Positions 366 through 24,758 of a DNA stretch of 33,970 bases are shown in pieces. Each line of letters opens with the position of its first letter. The first letter of the stretch is position 1. Under the pieces are notes generated by a model. That model was not told the origin of the DNA, ran no database searches, and saw only the letters and a program-made list of their open reading frames with translations. This stretch comes from Octopus sinensis (taxonomy: Eukaryota). Position numbers and translations under genes: made by a program. Location of the stretch: positions 1 to 33,970 of the forward strand of contig NW_021829874.1 of assembly GCF_006345805.1 (NCBI RefSeq), written 5' to 3'.

Positions 366-1269
366 GGATCTTTTCCGTTTGACCGGCAGTTTTTAACATA
401 ATTTCTAGGTAACTAAACACTTTTAAACTTCGTATTCTGGTAGAATGTGTTTATAAAACATCTTTTTCTCTTGGCTTTATTGAAAAAATTCTAGAGTTTA
501 TAAGATATTTGTTGGTTTTTTTTTCTTCAATTTCTGCAATCTCAACCAATCACTGACGTCCATTGGGGTAAAAAAAACATTCTGTGCTGTATGAATATGT
601 CCCTTGTTTAAGAAACAGGGATCTTTTCCATTTGAACGGCAGTTTTTAACACAATTTCTAGGTAACTAAACACTTTTAAACTTCGTATACTGGTAGAATG
701 TGTTTATAAAACATATTTTTCTCTTGGCTTTATTGAGAAAATTCTATAGTTTCTAAGATATTTGTTGGTTTTTTTCTTCAATTTCTGCAATTTCAACCAA
801 TCAATGACGTCTATTGAGGTAAAAAAAAACATTCCGTGCCGTATGAATATGTCCCACGTTTGGATTTTTTCGGTTTGAACGGCAGTTTTTAACATAATTT
901 CTAGGTAACTAAACACTTTTAAACTTCGTATACTGGTAGAATGTGTTTATAAAACATCTTTTTCTCTTGGCTTTATTGAGAAAATTCTATAGTTTGTAAG
1001 ATATTTGTTGGGTTTTTTTCTTCAATTTCTGCAATTTCAACCAATCAATGATGTCTATGGAGGTAAACAACATTCTGTGCCGTATGAATATGTCCCTTGT
1101 TTAAGAAACAGATTGGGATTATTTACATTTCTGAAGAAAAAAAAGATACCCTTCCCCCCACCCCTAAAACAGATTGAAATGCAATAGATCGATACTAGGG
1201 TCATAATCATGGGTGACAATTTCATATGATACCGCTAGAAAAAACTGCCGTTCAAACCGAAAAGATCCC
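366..1269 (+). mobile_element. Non-autonomous TIR DNA element (MITE) with its left ~250 bp present three times (units start 366, 618, 862)
   Basis: TIR (g)ggatcttttccgtttgaacggcagttttt is matched by aaaaactgccgttcaaaccgaaaagatccc ending at 1269; a second family member lies inverted at 24129-24754. Confidence 0.8.
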
Positions 1270-2855: not shown

Positions 2856-3039
2856 TGTTGCTGTGGCCCTGGAGGAACCAGATGATCTATATGTACATAT
2901 ATATATATATATATATATATGGGTGTGTGTGTTTCCTGACATGAAACCAATGGTAGCCTTAATTGACAAATAAAGAAATTATATCCACCAATGCGTTGTT
3001 GAGCACTCATTTCCATCATTCAACATTTACGTGTATATA

Positions 3040-3094
<55 letters not shown>

Positions 3095-3397: not shown

Positions 3398-3448
<51 letters not shown>

Positions 3449-3563
3449 TATATATATATATATACCGGAGTAAACACATAAATGTGAAACAAGGTGGAAA
3501 AAAGAGTACTCAAATACCAGTGGTAGAGTAATATGCTTTATTTTAAGCAGCAGAAAATTCAAC

Positions 3564-3610
3564 AAAACCTGTTACTCTGAGTTTCACGTTCCCATTCATC
3601 GGACAGTTTT
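3564..3610 (-). ncRNA. Putative minimal type I hammerhead ribozyme (inverted copy)
   Basis: Minus strand reads aaaactgt CCGATGA atg-ggaa-cgt GAAA ctc-a-gag TA acaggtttt; stem II has one G-U pair. Confidence 0.55.
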
Positions 3611-3800
3611 TGCTAGAATAGAACCGACATGTCAATTCTATCCAGACTAGTATAAACGCTACACCTTTAAAAATGGACTTGTTATATATGTTTTTTGAAC
3701 TGACCGTTATTTGTAATGGACCAATCAAACAAGTCCATTTTTAAAGGTGTAGCGTTTATACTAGTCTGGATAGAATTGACATATCGGTCCTATTCTAGCA

Positions 3801-3847
3801 AAAACTGTCCGACGAACGGGAACGTGAAACTCAGAGTAACAGGTTTT
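3801..3847 (+). ncRNA. Putative minimal type I hammerhead ribozyme
   Basis: Stem I CUGU; core CCGACGA; stem II ACG-GGAA-CGU; GAAA; stem III CUC-A-GAG; UA; stem I partner ACAG. Predicted cleavage after GUA at 3838. Confidence 0.6.
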
Positions 3848-4035
3848 GTAGAATTTTCTGCTGCTTTAAATAAAGTATATATATATATATATATATATAT
3901 AGAAGTTCAGCAACAATTTAGATTCAAATGAATGGCACTTAATTTAGATGCACCATAGGGTTTTTGGTCAGTTAGTAGCTGACCTACTACCTTATATTTT
4001 TTTTTTTTTTTGTACTTGTTTCAGTCACTTTTAGA

Positions 4036-7200: not shown

Positions 7201-7523
7201 GACGATGAGTGATGGTGACTGACGGTGACTGACGGTGATGTACGGTAGAGGATTCGGTGGCGATAAGCGATAACCGGTGGAGTTTCCTACCATGACAGTC
7301 CAGTTTGTTGTCCTTGGCTGTTGTTGTTGTTGTTGTTGTTGTTGTTTTTTCTTTAGTGTCTTTTTTTTGTTTTGTTTGTTGGTTTTCTTCTTTTCTTTTC
7401 CCTCGAATTTTCTTCTTCGCTTGTTTTGTTTCTTTTATTTGTTTTTGTTGTTTTTTTTTTTTTTTTGTTTTTGTGTTGTTGTTGTTGTTGTGTTTTTTTT
7501 TTTTTTTTTTTTGGGTTTCCTGA

Positions 7524-7656
7524 TCAGAAATTTCCTCCGAGGCTCAAAACGTCGAAACATATGTTGCACACGCGCACCGGTTTGGTGAGGTTGTACTTGA
7601 CGATGGGGATGTCATGGGTGGAGCATTTGGCACACAGCAGACGGCCACAGTGTCGA
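7524..7656 (-). CDS. ANKFY1: ANKFY1 last coding exon, FYVE C-half (RHCGRLLCAKCSTHDIPIVKYNLTKPVRVCNICFDVLSLGGNF-stop)
   Basis: Acceptor ttgcag|T; TGA at 7526-7524; RVC motif and remaining Zn ligands present. Confidence 0.95.
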
Positions 7657-10218: not shown

Positions 10219-12810
10219 TGTGTGTGTTTGTGTGTCTGTGTTTGTCCCTTAGCATTGCTTGACAACCGATGCTGGTGTGTTTACGTCCCCGTCACTTAGC
10301 GGTTCAGCAAAAGAGACCGATAGAATAAGTACTGGGCTTACAAAGAATAAGTCCCGGGGTCAACTTGCTCGACTAAAGGCGGTGCTCCAGCATGGCCACA
10401 GTCAAATAACTGAAACAAGTAAAAGAGTAAAGAGTAAAAGAGTATATATATATATATATATCCGTGATAAAAACTTTGTGAACGTCAGAGAACCTGGGGC
10501 ATAAAAACTCACCGAGTAATTTAAATATAAGTTGCTTAGACGCAACCGTAGCATTGAAAATACTGCAGCCGTGTTTGTTGGTTAAACCAAGGCAGGCGTT
10601 GGCCCGAACCAGGGCCCTACATACGGGACCGTTACCATTGAGATATGCCAAGAGGAGAGCTGAAATAGAAGGAAGAGAACAAATGAGAAACATGTGAGAT
10701 GGATGTTTGTTTTCATTAACCCCTTACCCGGCAGAAACGAATATATGCATTTTGACCGAAATCGGTTTTTTTCTATCTCTGGCGAGTTAACTCGTCAAAA
10801 GATAGACTCGCCAAAATCGACAGCAAACGAGTTCCTTCGTCTATTATAAACTCTTTTGACCGAAATCGTTTTTTTCTATCTCTGGCGAGTTAACTCGTCA
10901 AAAGATAGACTCGCCAAAATCGACAGCAAACGAGTTCCTTCGTCTATTATAAACTCTTTTGACCGAAATCGTTTTTTTCTATCTCTGGCGAGTTAACTCG
11001 TCAAAAGATAGACTCGCCAAAATCGACAGCAAACGAGTTCCTTCGTCTATTATAAACTCTTTTGATCGAAATCGTTTTTTTCTATCTCTGGCGAGTTAAC
11101 TCGTCAAAAGATAGACTCGCCAAAATCGACAGCAAACGAGTTCCTTCGTCTATTATAAACTCTTTTGACCGAAATCGTTTTTTTCTATCTCTGGCAAGTT
11201 AACTCGTCAAAAGATAGACTCGCCAAAATCGACAGCAAACGAGTTCCTTCGTCTATTATAAACTCTTTTGACGAGACCGAATCGTTTTTTTCTATCTCTG
11301 GCGAGTTTTAACTCGTCAAAAGATAGACGACTCGCCAAAATCGACAGCAAACGAGTTCCTCTTCGTCTATTATAAACTCTTTTGACCGAAATTGTTTTTT
11401 TCTATCTCTGGCAAGTTAACTCGTCAAAAGATAGACTCGCCAAAATCGACAGCAAATGAGTTCCTTTGTCTATTATAAACTCTTTTTTGACATATACGAG
11501 TATATTCGCTCACTTTATACTGTCTGGCAGTGACGATTTCTGCCACCTTTCGCTGAAAGGCATTGAAGACCGAGTATGATTTAGTCACCTGGAGACAGTG
11601 GAAGGGTTGGAAGGCACATTTTATGAATAGAAGTATTCACTTTGTTTTTACGTTGTTTTTTTTATACCTTTATATTATAACCCCACCATGTCGATAACCA
11701 AATAGAATAACATGATTTTTTGTAAAAGTAATATGATTTATAAAAAAAACGGGTTAACTCGTTTCTTCTGCCCAAAGCGGTAATTTAAAATTAATATTAT
11801 TGAATTAAAATTCATAATAAATAAGGTTTGAAATATACCTCGAAATCACCATTCAAAACATAGTAAAATAAAACAATTAAAAAATATGTCTGAAAAAATA
11901 CATTTATTTTCAAAATAATTGTTGGGTAAGGGGTTAATAACGACAAAATTACTTCACTAAATTCCCAATTATTTTGAAAATCAGTTGAAATGAAGGCAGA
12001 ATATTTCAACAGGAACATCCTAATCATATGACTTAGTTTACTCTTTTACTTGTTTCAGTCATTTGATGCGGCCATGCTGGTGCACCACCCTTTTAACCCC
12101 TTACCCGGCAGAAACGAATATATGCGTTTTGACCGAAATCGTTTTTTTTCTGTCTCTGGCGAGTTAACTCGTCAAAAGATAGACTCGCCAAAATCGACAG
12201 CAAACGAGTTCCTTCGTCTAAAAACGGGTTAACTCGTTTCTGCCCAAAGCGGTAATTTAAAATCAATATTATTGAATTAAAATTCATAATAAATAAGGTT
12301 TGAAATATACCTCGAAATCACCATTCAAAACATAGTAAAGTAAAACAATTAAAAAATATGTCTGCAAAAAATACATTTATTTTCAAAATAATTGTTGGGT
12401 AAGGGGTTAAAAGTGTTGAAATGTGTATTGTATAAAGCAAAAAACAAGAAGGTGATTTCAATGCTTCTCAAGGAAGCAAATGCTTGCTTGTTTGTATTTA
12501 TACATACATGGTTGTTCCTGAAGCTATTCAGCATCTAAAATCGGTAGAAGAAGAATGATTTTTTTTATTGGCCTCAAGGGCCAAAGACACGGAGGTCAAT
12601 ATCGAAGGTCAAGTAGAGCACAAAAAATCACAAAAAAAAAAAGAACAGGCACAGGAGTGGCTGTGTGGTAAGTAGCTTGCTTACCAACCACATGGTTCCG
12701 GGTTCAGTCCCACTGCATGGCACCTTGAGCAAGTGTCTTCTACTATAGCCTCGGGCCGACCAAAGTCTTGTGAGTGGATTTGGTAGACGGAAACTGAAAG
12801 AAGCCCGTCG

Positions 12811-13851: not shown

Positions 13852-16800
13852 GAAGTGGCTGTGTGGTAAGTAGCTTGCTTACCGACCACATGGTTCAGGG
13901 TTCAGTCCCACTACGTGGCACCTTGGGCAAGTGTCTTCTACTATAGACTCGGGCCGACCAAAGCCTTGTGAGTGGATTTGGTAGACGGAAACTGAAAAGA
14001 AGCCCGTCGTATATATGTATGTGTGTGTTTGTGTTTGTCCCCCCAAGATCCCTTGACAACCGATGCTGGTGTGTTTACGTCCCCGTAACTTAGCAGTTCA
14101 GCAAAAGTGACCGATAGAATAAGTACTGGGCTTCCAAAGAATAAGTCCTGGTGTCAATTTGCTCGACCGACTAAAGGCGGTGCTCCAGCATGTCCGCAGT
14201 CAAATGACTGAAACAAGTACAAGAGTAATCATCCCAAACGAATACGCTCAACCACAACATGCGAGAAAACATCAATGGTGCCATCAATCGCCGGGAAGGG
14301 CACGGACGGGGAGCTGGACAAGGGCCCACCAACCAGCCGACCGACCGACCGACTGACCAGCATTCTCTCCCCAACGTCTTCCCATGAAACAAACAGGTGA
14401 CTTACTTTCCATTCGGTACTTCGGCCTCGATAGTCGACTCCGTCAGCAGACATCGTATCGTGTGCATGTTGCCGTGGGCAACAGCAATGTGTAAGGCTGA
14501 AAATGGCAAGGGTAGAATAAAGAGGATTATACAGGTGTTAGCGGAGTAGCAATGAGTGATGAACGGCGAATAGCGAATGATGAATGATGAGTGATGACTG
14601 GTGGTTGATGACTGATGAGTGACGACTGGTGATTGATGACTGATGGGTGATGAGTGGTGAATGATGTATGGTGAATGGCAATGACTGACAGGTGATTCAA
14701 CATGATGACTGGTGTTTGATGACTGATGGGTGATGAGTGGTGAATGATGTATGGTGAATGGCAATGACTGACAGGTAATTCAACGTGATGACTGGTGTTT
14801 GGTGACTGATGGGTGATGAGTGGTGAATGATGTATGGTGAATGGCAATGACTTACAGGTGATTCAACGTGATGACTGGTGTTTGATGACTGATGGGTGAT
14901 GAGTGGTGAATGATGTATGGTGAATGGCAATGACTGACAGGTGATTCAACGTGATGACTGGTGTTTGATGGGTGATGAGTGGTGAATGATGTATGGTGAA
15001 TGGCAATGACTGACAGGTGATTCAACGTGATGACTGGTGTTTGATGACTGATGGGTGATGAGTGGTGAATGATGTATGGTGAATGGCAATGACTGACAGG
15101 TGATTTAACGTGATGACTGGTGTTTGATGACTGATGGGTGATGAGTGGTGAATGATGGGAGTGTCAGATGACTAACCAATGATGAATGATTAAAAGTGAT
15201 GAATTATGGATGATAGTAATGAATGTGATGACCAGTGAATAATGATGATGGGTGACAGATGATCAACCAGTGATGCATGATGGGTGATGAATGGTGGATA
15301 ACAAGCCATGAATGATGGGTGATGAGTAATTAATGATGACGACTGATTGCAGGTGATGAACGGTGACAAATAATGTGTGATTAACACTGGTGAGTGATAG
15401 TGTTGTGACCCCTGAGCATAAACAAAAAAAATTTAGACACATAGTATTATTACTGGTATTAGAGTTTGTCACTAGGCCAGCAATTTTGAGGGGGGGGGGT
15501 CTGGTCAATTACATTGACCCCAGGGTTCAAATAATACTTGTTTTATCAACCTGGAAAGGATGAAAGGCAAAATCGACCCCGGCGGGATTTGAACTCAGAA
15601 CGTAAAGGCAGACGAAATGCCGCTAAGCATTTCGCCCACCATGCTAACTCTTCTGCCAGCATGCTGTCTTAACACACAGTTATATCAACGAAACTTGTGG
15701 TGGTGGTGGTGGTGATGGTGGAGGTGGTATGGTCATGTTAGTGTAGTGGTGGTGGTGGTGGTGGTGGCAGTATTGGTGATGGTGGAGCTGCTATGGTCAT
15801 GTTAGTGTAGTGGTGGTGGTGGTGGTGGCAGTGTAGGTGGAAGTGGTGGTGGTGATTGTGGTCATGGTGGTGGTGGTGGCAGTGGCAGTGTTGGCGATGG
15901 TGGAGCTGGTATGGTCATGTCAGGTGGTGGTGGTGGTCGTGGCTGCAGTGCTGATTGCAGTGTTAGCAGCAGTGGTGGTGATGTTATGGTCATGTTAGTG
16001 TATTAGTGGTGGTGATGGTGGTGGTGGTGGTGGCAGTGTTGGTGATGGTGACGGAGCTGGTATGGTCATGTTAGTGTGTTGGTGGTGGTGGTTGTGGGGC
16101 AGTGGTGGTGATGGTGGTGGTGGTGGTGGTGGTGGTTGTGGTGGCAGTGGTGATTGGTGATGGCAACAGTGGTGGTGATGGTGGGGGCGGTAGCAGCGGC
16201 GGTGGTGGTGGTGGTGGTAGTGGCAGTGGTGGTAATGGTGACGGAGCTGGTATGGTCATGTTAGTGTGTTGGTGGTGGTGGTTGTGGGGCAGTGGTGGTG
16301 ATGGTGGTGGTGGTGGTGGTGGTGGTGGTGGTGGTGGTGGTGGTGGTGGTGGCAGTGGTGATTGGTGATGGCAACAGTGGTGGTGATGGTGGGGGCGGTA
16401 GCAGCGGCGGTGGTGGTGGTGGTGGTAGTGGCAGTGTTGGTAATGGTGACGGAGCTGGTATGGTCATGTCAGTGCGGTGGTGGTGGTGGCGGTGGTGGCG
16501 GTGGTGATTGCAGTGATGGCAGCCGTGGTAGTAGTGGTGGTGGTGGTGAAGGCCTTAGAGCCACCAGCGCCCATACCTACCATTGTTTTGGTTTTCATCG
16601 ACAGCATTGATCTCGACTCCGTTCTCAAGGAGGGCAGTGACCAGACTGGGGTTATCGTTCATCGACGACAGATGCAGGGCTGATTCTCCGTGCAGTGTAC
16701 GTTCGTTCACATCAGCACCAGCCAGGATCTGCAAAGAAAAGGAGCATTATTATACATACATACATACATACATACTGTGCTTCTTTCAGTTTCCGTCTAC

Positions 16801-21025: not shown

Positions 21026-21996
21026 TCATCATCATCATCATCATCATCGTTTAACGTCCGTTCTCCATGCTAGCATGGGTTGGACGGTTCGACCGGGGAT
21101 CTGGAAAGCCAGAAGGCTGCACCAGGCTCCAGTCTTATCGGCAGGTTTCTACAGCTGGATGCCCTTCCTAACGCCAACCACTCCGTGAGTGTAGTGGGTG
21201 CTTTTTACGTGCCACCTGCACAGGTGGCCAGGCGAGGCTGGCAACGGCCACGGTCGGATTGGTGTATTTTATGTGACACCTGCACGGAAGCCAAACGAGG
21301 GGGGTGCTGGCATCGGCCACGAGCGGTAGTGCTTTTTACGTACACCAGACCAGGGATCCTGGCTGGTTCAATTCGATTTCGATTTTGCTTGCCCCAACAT
21401 GTCTTCGCAAGCAAGGGGGTTGGCATGGGTGCCTGTCGTACGGTCAGTCAGATTGGTGTATTTTACGTGCCACCGGCACGGAAGCCAGTGGAGGCGGCGC
21501 TGGCATCGGCCACGAGTCGGATAGTGCTTTTTACGTACCACCAGACCAGGGATCCTGGCTGGTTCAATTCGATTTCGATTTCGTTTTCGCTTGCCCCAAC
21601 ATGTCTTCGCAAGCAAGGGGGTTGGCATGGGTGCCTGTCGTACGGTCAGATTGGTGTATTACGTGCCACCGGCACGGAGGCCAGTGGAGGCGGCGCTTGG
21701 CATCGGCCACGAGTCGGATAGTGTTTTTACGTACCACCAGACCGGGATCCTGGCTGGTTCAATTCGATTTCGCTTGCCCCAACACGTCTTCGCAAGCAAG
21801 GGGGTTGTCATGGGTGCCTGTCGTACGGTCAGATTGGTGTATTTTACGTGCCCACCCCACCGGCACGGAAGCCAGTGGAGGCATCGGCCACGAGTCGGAT
21901 AGTGCTTTTTACGTACCACCAGACCAGGGATCCTGGCTGGTTCAATTCGATTTTTCGATAATGATAATAATGATAATAATAATAATAAAATAATAA

Positions 21997-23949: not shown

Positions 23950-24758
23950 CGAGGGTGAGTCAAAAAGTAATAGCATTTTGTTAAGGCAGGAACATGTATC
24001 ATACATCAAAATAAAGCTGGTCCACTGTGGATCACATCCCTACTTCTCAACATAGTCACCGTTTCTCTCAATAGCAATGTTCTGCCTTCGAATGAGAGTA
24101 TGTATCCCTACCCCGTAAGAAGAATAGAGGGATCATTTCGGTTTGAACAGCAGTTTTTTCTAGCGGTGTCATATGAAATTGTCACCCATAATTATGACCC
24201 TAGTATCGATCTATTGCATTTCAATCTGTTTTACGGTTAGGGTTAGTTAAGGTGAGGGTTAGGGGTGGGGGGAAGGGTATCTTTTTTCTTCGCAAATGTA
24301 AATAAACCCAATCTGTTTCTTAAACGAGGGACATATTCATACGGCACAGAATGTTTTTTACCTCAATAGACGTCATTGATTGGTTGAACTTGCAGAAATT
24401 GAAGAAAAAAAACCAACAAATATCTTAGAAACAATAGAATTTTCTCAATAAAGCCAAGAGAAAAAGATGTTTTATACACACATTCTACCAGTATACGAAG
24501 TTTAAGAGTGTTTAGTTACGTGGAAATTATTTTAAAACACTGCCGGTCAAACCAAAAAGATCCCAGTTTCTTAAACGAGGGACATATTCATACGGCACAG
24601 AATATTTTTTTTTACCTCAATAGACGTCAGTGATTGGTTGAAATTGCAGAAATTGAAGAAAAAAACCCAACAAATATCTTACAAACTATAGAATTTTCTC
24701 AATAAAGCCAAGAGAAATTATTTTTAAAAACTGCCAGTCAGACCGAAAAGATCCGGAT

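What the first reader, a model, noticed from the sequence alone, without database searches (positions are those of the whole stretch)
3564..3847. Pair of divergent minimal hammerhead-ribozyme motifs with a variant CCGANGA core
Seen: plus 3801-3847 folds as stem I (CUGU/ACAG, extendable by AAAA/UUUU across a bulge), CCGACGA, stem II ACG-GGAA-CGU, GAAA, stem III CUC-A-GAG, then UA. That is the order and pairing of a type I hammerhead with a GUA cleavage triplet (cut after 3838). A second copy sits on the minus strand at 3564-3610; its two differences inside the motif fall at the free N7 position and as a C-G to U-G change, so the fold is kept. Established: Penelope-like elements and metazoan retrozymes carry minimal type I hammerheads with a very short, near-palindromic helix III that is thought to work as a dimer. 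Inference: this is a cephalopod family with U4 replaced by C and a 1-nt loop III, so probably an obligate dimer. Motif searches requiring CUGANGA would miss it.
Basis: partly seen in the sequence, partly recalled or inferred. Interest (0 to 1): 0.8.

Follow-up and report, generated by a model that had tools for sequence, protein, structure and literature searches.

The report
Retrotransposon ribozyme with recurring core swap
The two motifs are the ends of one broken, folded-back copy of a Penelope-like jumping gene, whose built-in RNA-scissors motif is of a known type but carries a C at a normally fixed U; this swap recurs in three separate families of this genome while the rest of the motif stays conserved, so the variant is likely still working.

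Summary
The motif is real, but the 'pair' is one insertion: two 148-bp arms of a 5'-truncated, inverted copy of a Hydra-clade Penelope-like element (PLE) in a (TA)n tract, one arm with a 71-nt tail. Sense and antisense lie on one strand (-246 kcal/mol hairpin), so these two copies cannot be dimer partners. The architecture (CUC-N-GAG helix III, 1-nt loop, mismatch-tolerant base of helix II) is already tabulated for Hydra PLEs (Craig 2021, File S2), always with U4. What is new is U4C. It marks older subfamilies of this family (the youngest, ORF-intact one has CUGAUGA) and, separately, the youngest ORF-intact subfamilies of two other families (44% and 32% protein identity), nested in U4 relatives. 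Along these three lineages the other core and stem positions did not change (0 of 58 positions not fixed by my searches; flanks 88 of 402). Thousands of C4 copies exist. U4C was known from one viroid variant. Cleavage was not tested; best reading: a slow, dimer- or protein-assisted ribozyme that tolerates C4. New variant of a known kind.

The parts
3400..3464 (.). (TA)n tract, left part of the insertion target
   Evidence: Hydra PLEs insert in (TA)n (PMC8557442 section 11)
3465..3535 (-). 71-nt 'tail': element sequence beyond the short end; in full-length copies it continues into the leader before the ORF
   Evidence: matches L086 downstream of both hammerheads
3536..3683 (-). left arm: 5'-truncated 3' end (pLTR) of the PLE, inverted
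3564..3610 (-). type I hammerhead motif, core CCGAUGA (C3 at 3602); predicted cut between 3573 and 3572; two CpG transitions relative to the + copy
3684..3697 (.). junction between the two truncated 5' ends (short AT-rich filler)
3698..3875 (+). right arm: 5'-truncated 3' end (pLTR) of the PLE, ending at the short end AATAAAG (3869-3875)
3801..3847 (+). type I hammerhead motif, core CCGACGA (C3 3809, C4 3810), GNAA loop II, palindromic helix III 3829-3837, GUA triplet, predicted cut after 3838
3876..3901 (.). (TA)n tract, right part of the insertion target

Best explanation
The two motifs are the outward-facing ends of one 5'-truncated, inverted insertion of a Hydra-clade Penelope-like retrotransposon in a (TA)n tract, and each carries the element's type I hammerhead, which in full-length copies likely still cuts the tandem transcript slowly, as a dimer or with protein help, despite C at core position 4. 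Shown: element identity, pLTR-ORF-pLTR layout with a hammerhead in each pLTR (3,348 nt apart in L086, cut site 175 nt before the ATG), the inverted layout, purifying selection on core and stems along three master lineages, and repeated U/C change at position 4. Inferred: the insertion arose by two priming events, one on each DNA strand, from the two internal RT start sites (short end and +71-nt end); in a full element the 5' and 3' hammerheads swap their ACUC-N-GAGU palindromes to form an 8-bp helix III and release a unit-length RNA; C4 weakens the U-turn but leaves enough activity. The window copy itself is an inert genomic fossil: any transcript through it would fold into a 148-bp hairpin that masks the motif.
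For: Family: 5,671 exact matches with the core left free, 0 for the reversed control. ORF link: RT (YRDD), linker and GIY-YIG-like EN upstream of C4 copies L033, L037, L042, L050, L054; intact 711-aa ORF between two hammerheads. Hydra marks RWK, DKT, CxxC, CxH in P0001 and in 88, 118, 119, 119 of 120 homologues (definition). One-insertion model: 22 of 22 inverted pairs among the loci held have exactly one short and one tailed end, as two RT start sites and two-strand priming predict (PMC11167929). Structure: stem I pairs in all 13 representatives with different sequences (first 3 pairs in 13 of 13; UA/GC/UA/CG, AU/AU/UA/AU, CG/UA/UA/UA, GC/GC/UA, GC/GC/CG/GC, CG/AU/CG/CG), helix III always a palindrome. 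Selection: 0 of 86 core and stem positions changed between old and young subfamilies of three families against 88 of 402 flank positions; keeping only the 58 positions that my patterns had not fixed, the chance is about 5e-6 (my arithmetic from per-family flank rates). With the core free, position 4 varies in 40 of 100 (family 1) and 49 of 100 (family 2) listed copies, every other invariant core position in at most 4 and 6 (hand counts). C4 sits in both pLTRs of ORF-intact elements of family 2 (L181) and family 3 (L189), in clades nested in U4 relatives (SH-aLRT 100 and 98, position 4 removed, midpoint root). A natural U4C viroid hammerhead has low activity in vitro but supports infection (PMC3088659).
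Against: No cleavage data. In a type III hammerhead, single and double mutants of the CUGA turn other than the C3-G8 swap showed low activity (PMC9901934). PLE hammerheads are poor even with U4, and core mutants did not affect insertion in vitro (PMC4209133; PMC11167929), so conservation could serve protein binding rather than cutting. Family 1 combines C4 with a 2-bp helix II and no conserved 10.1-11.1 pair, and the youngest family 3 subfamily also changed G10.1-C11.1 to G.U, which could mean gradual weakening. In family 1 alone the selection test is marginal (p=0.043). The family 1 tree kept the trait column and its bootstrap had not settled. C4 rows for families 2 and 3 came from protein-similarity searches that favour young copies; only 10 and 15 U4 rows passed the alignment filter. 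Roots are midpoints.
Confidence: 0.66

Rival explanations
1. C4 silences catalysis; the fold is kept only as a binding or positioning element for the RT-endonuclease, and self-cleavage is dispensable.
For: Core mutants do not affect insertion in vitro and no reads end at the cut site in the anole element (PMC11167929); Naiads thrive without canonical hammerheads (PMC8557442); CUGA mutants show low activity; further weakening changes in young subfamilies.
Against: The catalytic G8 and G12, C3-G8, A9, A13, A14 and an H at position 17 (A, U or C, never G, in 13 of 13 representatives) stay fixed in C4 lineages; family 1 went from C4 to U4 in its youngest branch with the rest intact, which is simplest if activity was never lost.
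Confidence: 0.17
2. C4 is not just tolerated but repeatedly favoured: it slows or conditions cleavage (for example until the element's protein binds), raising the share of uncut RNA that serves as the insertion template.
For: Position 4 changed in all three lineages examined, about 0.01 by flank rates (post hoc); two changes are U-to-C gains that create a mutable CpG and lie in the youngest, amplifying subfamilies; C4 also occurs in families 4 and 6; uncut RNA is the main insertion substrate and cleavage needs protein in the anole element.
Against: The youngest family 1 subfamily amplified to at least 2,746 copies with U4; transitions are the commonest change; no kinetic or transposition data.
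Confidence: 0.13
3. The two window motifs act together at this locus as a divergent ribozyme pair or a host-adopted regulatory RNA.
For: Two copies 200 bp apart; helix III is self-complementary.
Against: Opposite strands, so one transcript holds a motif and its antisense and folds at -246 or -257 kcal/mol; the same layout recurs in 22 loci as an insertion by-product; arms differ by 4%, largely at CpG sites; no PLE ORF in the window.
Confidence: 0.02
4. The locus is a miRNA precursor or a foldback/MITE DNA element and the hammerhead likeness is chance.
For: MIR1319 match, E 1.4e-10; long inverted repeat.
Against: 63 bits against a gathering score of 117; arms are truncated at variable 5' points and continue into an RT ORF in longer copies; 0 chance hits in 100 shuffles; covariation across families.
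Confidence: 0.02

Closest known systems
Hammerheads of Hydra-clade PLEs (Craig et al. 2021, PMC8557442, File S2; e.g. Hydra-2_aMil, Hydra-1/2_aJap, Penelope-3_HM, Penelope-16_HM)
   Same: Type I, near the 3' end; helix III ACTC-N-GAGT with a 1-nt loop in 5 of 25 listed families; U.U or U.C at the base of helix II in 15 of 25; Hydra-2_aMil has the same stem I (ctgt/acag) and A at the cut site.
   Different: All 25 have U4 (their search used the CUGANGA core, so C4 could not be found). Helix II here is 2 bp plus a GNAA loop. The one octopus family listed (Hydra-1_oBim) has another hammerhead than any family seen here. The unit here is 3,348 nt, above the 'generally <3 kb', owing to a 1-kb 3' UTR; the tail is 71 nt, not 30-40.
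Minimal PLE hammerheads (Cervera and de la Pena 2014, PMC4209133)
   Same: In pLTRs, palindromic helix III, dual copies on opposite strands 100-700 bp apart, extra base after A9, weak activity only as dimers.
   Different: Their consensus has U4, G10.1-C11.1 and a long helix II; no C4 among the rows of Fig. S3 that I saw; their core variant is U3-A8.
U4C hammerhead of a viroid variant (Ambros and Flores 1998, known to me only through PMC3088659)
   Same: Same core substitution, in nature.
   Different: A variant of an RNA pathogen with loop-loop contacts; here it is fixed in retrotransposon master lineages, in thousands of DNA copies, and arose more than once.
Non-LTR retrozymes (PMC7229834; bioRxiv 10.64898/2026.07.22.740005)
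   Same: Type I hammerhead with short helix III, PLE-related.
   Different: Retrozymes are short head-to-tail tandem repeats without an ORF; this is the truncated end of an autonomous element in inverted layout.

Membership tests
Penelope-like element (EN+) | Single ORF with RT and C-terminal GIY-YIG-type endonuclease between pLTRs | tested here: met
   711-aa ORF with YRDD and GVVY..YTGASE between two hammerhead-bearing repeats; Pfam gave no RT or GIY-YIG hit for P0001, a weak GIY-YIG hit for homologue P0003
Penelope-like element (EN+) | 5' truncation, inverted 5' copy, optional tail at one end | tested here: met
   22 of 22 inverted pairs have one short and one tailed end; coverage falls off 5'-ward
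Hydra clade of PLEs | RWK motif; DKG changed to DKT | tested here: met
   P0001 RWK at 37, DKT at 113; definition
Hydra clade of PLEs | CxCX5C linker | tested here: inconclusive
   Present in older family 1 copies (CNCKNESSC), in family 2 and 114 of 120 homologues, but only 2 of 22 young family 1 ORF segments keep the second Cys
Hydra clade of PLEs | No CCHH motif in the EN; CxxC and CxH near the C-terminus | tested here: met
   No Cys between GVVY and YTG (motif position recalled); CxxC at 667 and CxH at 695
Hydra clade of PLEs | Insertion in (TA)n | tested here: met
   Window flanks and most arm ends
Hydra clade of PLEs | Length generally under 3 kb | tested here: not met
   Unit 3,348 nt in family 1; 2,578 and 2,863 in families 2 and 3. 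A loose descriptor in the source, not a strict criterion
Hydra clade of PLEs | Placement with published Hydra RTs in a tree | not tested
Type I hammerhead ribozyme | Three-helix junction, stem I open, covarying stems | tested here: met
Type I hammerhead ribozyme | C3, G5, A6, G8, A9, G12, A13, A14, A15.1-U16.1, H17 | tested here: met
Type I hammerhead ribozyme | U4 of the CUGA turn | tested here: not met
   C at 3810 and 3601; a natural exception is on record
Type I hammerhead ribozyme | Conserved R10.1-Y11.1 pair | tested here: not met
   A opposite U, G, A or C among family copies; mismatch is common in Hydra hammerheads
Type I hammerhead ribozyme | Site-specific self-cleavage after H17 | not testable with these tools
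   Needs an assay or raw RNA reads
Dimer-dependent short-helix-III hammerheads | Helix III unstable alone, self-complementary between copies | tested here: met
   Pair probability 0.09-0.11 in the monomer; homoduplex -7.4 kcal/mol; prediction only
Dimer-dependent short-helix-III hammerheads | Cleavage faster in dimer than monomer | not testable with these tools
   none
Non-LTR retrozyme | Short head-to-tail tandem units, no ORF | tested here: not met
   No tandem array at the site; continuous with an ORF in longer copies

The most novel reading that the evidence does not exclude
Penelope-like elements of this animal repeatedly evolve a C4 hammerhead because the substitution turns the ribozyme into a slow or protein-gated switch that balances uncut template against cut, unit-length RNA; position 4 is then an evolutionary tuning knob, and thousands of C4 ribozymes are missing from all CUGANGA-based catalogues.
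Probability: 0.15. Interest if true: 0.72.

Novelty: new variant of a known kind. Interest (0 to 1): 0.47.

Why it matters
What hammerheads do for Penelope-like elements is unresolved. This genome offers matched natural pairs: sister subfamilies of three separate, recently amplifying elements that differ at a core base usually taken as invariant, with the rest of the ribozyme under purifying selection. That makes the question directly testable (C4 against U4 in the same element, for cleavage and for transposition), widens the known natural hammerhead core, and shows that CUGANGA descriptors undercount genomic hammerheads (roughly 5,600 C4 motifs here if the listed shares hold genome-wide: 39% of 5,671, 51% of 5,466, 32% of 1,822). 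The strict one-short, one-tailed rule of inverted insertions (22 of 22) is genomic support for two-site, two-strand priming. The window locus itself is an ordinary truncated copy.

Tried and rejected
Rfam scan: no hammerhead family at E<=10; miRNA hits come from hairpins and microsatellites. First took the element for a Neptune-clade PLE; the motifs fit Hydra instead. Pfam and PDB sequence searches of the ORF gave nothing useful. RNA ends: no RNA holder listed on record as RNA and only contigs, no raw reads; contigs cannot show ends, so expression and cleavage stay open. Within-family conservation of copies was not used as evidence, since inserted copies drift neutrally; the test was made between subfamilies. 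The metagenome scan gave 3 loci, one with a hammerhead (L178, U4), so the spread of C4 outside this genome's relatives is untested. Idea that T4 copies are all CpG decay: fits the 11 of 100 but not the young family 1 or old family 2 and 3 subfamilies, where U4 is near fixed. Idea that C4 is an assembly error: contigs from four runs of four studies show C at 3810 in 46-88% of summed depth. Literature: nine searches found no report of C4 in PLE hammerheads; Lunse 2017, Ambros 1998 and Nelson 2008 were not held, and Lunse's large variant set may contain C4 cases. The scan's earlier notes held nothing.

Full report
Observation. A type I descriptor with position 4 free finds the two sites and nothing else in the window, and nothing in 100 block shuffles. 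The two sites lie in the arms of one inverted repeat, 3536-3683 and 3728-3875, with 6 differences in 148 bp, between (TA)n tracts. The two differences in the motif are C-to-T at CpG sites. Either strand folds into one long hairpin (-246 and -257 kcal/mol), so the two motifs cannot be partners on one RNA. Rfam has no hammerhead hit here at E<=10.

What the element is. The arm is a repeat (45 matches from 40 of 898 candidates scored). Walking upstream leads through a 1-kb non-coding region to an ORF with YRDD, a cysteine linker and a GIY-YIG-like end. Copies with an intact 711-aa ORF have a hammerhead on each side, 3,348 nt apart, the 5' cut site 175 nt before the ATG. The protein has the marks that Craig et al. 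give for the Hydra clade of Penelope-like elements (PMC8557442 section 11): RWK, DKT, C-terminal CxxC and CxH, no cysteines inside the GIY-YIG stretch, (TA)n targets. The CxCX5C linker is whole in older copies and in 114 of 120 homologues but in only 2 of 22 young segments. I did not place it on a tree with published Hydra proteins. The window holds no ORF remnant.

How the pair arose. Arms end either at AATAAAG or 71 nt further on. Among the loci held, 22 of 22 inverted pairs have one end of each kind (terminal arms overall 52 short, 37 tailed). An anole PLE nicks and extends both DNA strands and starts reverse transcription at two nearby internal sites, the gap being the tail (PMC11167929). 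Inference: one integration event primed both strands, both cDNAs stopped early and were joined at 3684-3697.

The hammerhead type is known. File S2 of the same paper lists 25 Hydra families: 5 have the same ACTC-N-GAGT helix III with a 1-nt loop, 15 have U.U or U.C at the base of helix II, and Hydra-2_aMil has the same stem I. All have U4, but the search used the CUGANGA core. A complete metagenomic relative (L178, 45% identical protein) has the same layout with U4. So the loop and the dimer-type helix III are not new. In the monomer, stem I is well formed (0.72-0.99), helix II partly (0.43) and helix III hardly (0.1), while two palindromes pair at -7.4 kcal/mol.

C4 within the family. With U before GAAA, 87 of the first 100 of 1,725 copies have C4, 11 T, 2 A. 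With A before GAAA, 97 of the first 100 of 2,746 have U4, and these include all 47 young rows from ORF-bearing loci. A tree of 105 arms shows a ladder of C4 subfamilies and one long-stemmed U4 branch (100/97), but it kept the trait column, is midpoint-rooted and its bootstrap had not settled. So the window copy belongs to an older C4 subfamily and the currently amplifying one has the canonical core.

C4 in other families. A pattern anchored on helix III gave 1,169 more sites against 12 for the control, revealing further families with different stems I and II. Family 2 (44% protein identity) and family 3 (32%; helix III CAUAUG, long helix II) both have intact ORFs with C4 in both pLTRs (L181, L189). 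Both also have U4 subfamilies (49 of the first 100 of 5,466; 68 of the first 100 of 1,822). With position 4 removed, the C4 copies form young clades (mean divergence 1.1% and 0.8%) nested in more diverged U4 copies, SH-aLRT 100 and 98 (61 C4 and 10 U4 rows, 19 C4 and 15 U4 rows; rows too short to align were dropped, C4 rows came from protein searches that favour young copies, midpoint roots). C4 also appears in two further, older families, one linked to a PLE EN remnant (L164).

Selection. Comparing commonest letters of old and young subfamilies in the three families, 0 of 30 invariant core positions and 0 of 56 stem positions changed, against 88 of 402 flank positions. Some of these positions were fixed by the patterns that picked the old copies; keeping only the 58 free ones (28 in family 1, 14 in family 2, 16 in family 3) the joint chance is about 5e-6 by my arithmetic; family 1 alone gives p=0.043. 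With the core left free in the search, position 4 varies in 40 and 49 of 100 listed copies and any other invariant position in at most 4 and 6 (hand counts, first contig only). Across 13 representatives stem I is kept with different sequences and position 17 is never G. Thus the motif is under constraint while position 4 behaves as a free U/C site.

Mechanism. Established: short-helix-III hammerheads of PLEs cleave weakly and only as dimers or with extended helix III (PMC4209133), the anole one only with its protein, and its cleavage is not needed for insertion in vitro. CUGA-turn mutants have low activity in a type III ribozyme (PMC9901934), yet a natural U4C viroid variant keeps enough activity in vivo (PMC3088659). 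Inferred: in a full element the two same-sense hammerheads swap helix III strands and release a unit-length RNA slowly; C4 lowers the rate but not below what the element needs (0.66). Rivals: catalytically dead but kept for protein binding (0.17); C4 favoured as an attenuator (0.13); local function or a hairpin element (0.02 each).

Novelty and sources. Nine searches found no report of C4 in PLE hammerheads. One virome study used a CYGANGA descriptor but also required G10.1-C11.1 (PMC13481778). Seen: PMC4209133 main text parts 1-2 of 4 and supplement parts 1-2 of 3; PMC8557442 passages, section 11, supplement parts 1-2 of 59 and one term search; PMC11167929 parts 1-2 of 4; PMC3088659 passages and section 8; bioRxiv 10.64898/2026.07.22.740005 part 1 of 5, supplements not seen; passages only of PMC9901934, PMC13481778, PMC6765202, PMC7229834, PMC13725137, PMC7936874, PMC11014351. 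Not seen: Lunse 2017 (title in reference lists only), Ambros 1998, Nelson 2008; the first could hold C4 cases. Family numbers 1-7 are my labels. Verdict: a real motif, an ordinary truncated copy at this locus, a known ribozyme class in a known element clade, with a recurrent natural core variant that seems unreported; interest 0.47.

Noticed in passing
22 loci, e.g. L001, L006, L086-L103: Every inverted insertion of family 1 has exactly one short end and one end with the 71-nt tail (22 of 22), a stricter rule than the 'often at one end' in the literature read.
   Followed up: yes
L086-L105 ORFs; L189:4201-6534: The young family 1 subfamily mostly has Phe in place of the second Cys of the CxCX5C linker (16 of 22 read CNFKNESSC), and family 3 has no cysteine linker at all, yet both still insert in (TA)n.
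   Followed up: partly
L002, L008, L014, L026, L028, about 130-170 nt upstream of the hammerhead: The family 1 3' UTR carries its own (TA)n tract of variable length, i.e. its preferred target, which may seed partial tandems and pLTRs.
   Followed up: no
window 7513-7570 (+): A hammerhead-like remnant (CTGATCA ... CGAAACATATGT, helix III as in family 3) next to a poly-T/GTT tract; no match among fetched loci.
   Followed up: partly
L178:265-305 and 3024-3064: Complete pLTR-ORF-pLTR Hydra-type element on a JGI metagenome contig, with a U4 hammerhead, CAC-U-GUG helix III and C.A at the base of helix II.
   Followed up: partly
L163, L165, L152, L156, L185: At least four more hammerhead-bearing repeat families with CUC-N-GAG or CAUAUG helix III in this genome; ORFs not traced.
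   Followed up: partly
window 366-1111, 10750-11486, 14619-15157, 21250-21953: Tandem arrays of 243, 103, 83 and about 190 bp units; the 243-bp unit has an inverted copy at 24282-24537.
   Followed up: no
window 3536-3875: Inverted PLE ends like this one are long double-stranded RNA if transcribed, so possible substrates for editing or small-RNA pathways; many listed copies come as close opposite-strand pairs.
   Followed up: no
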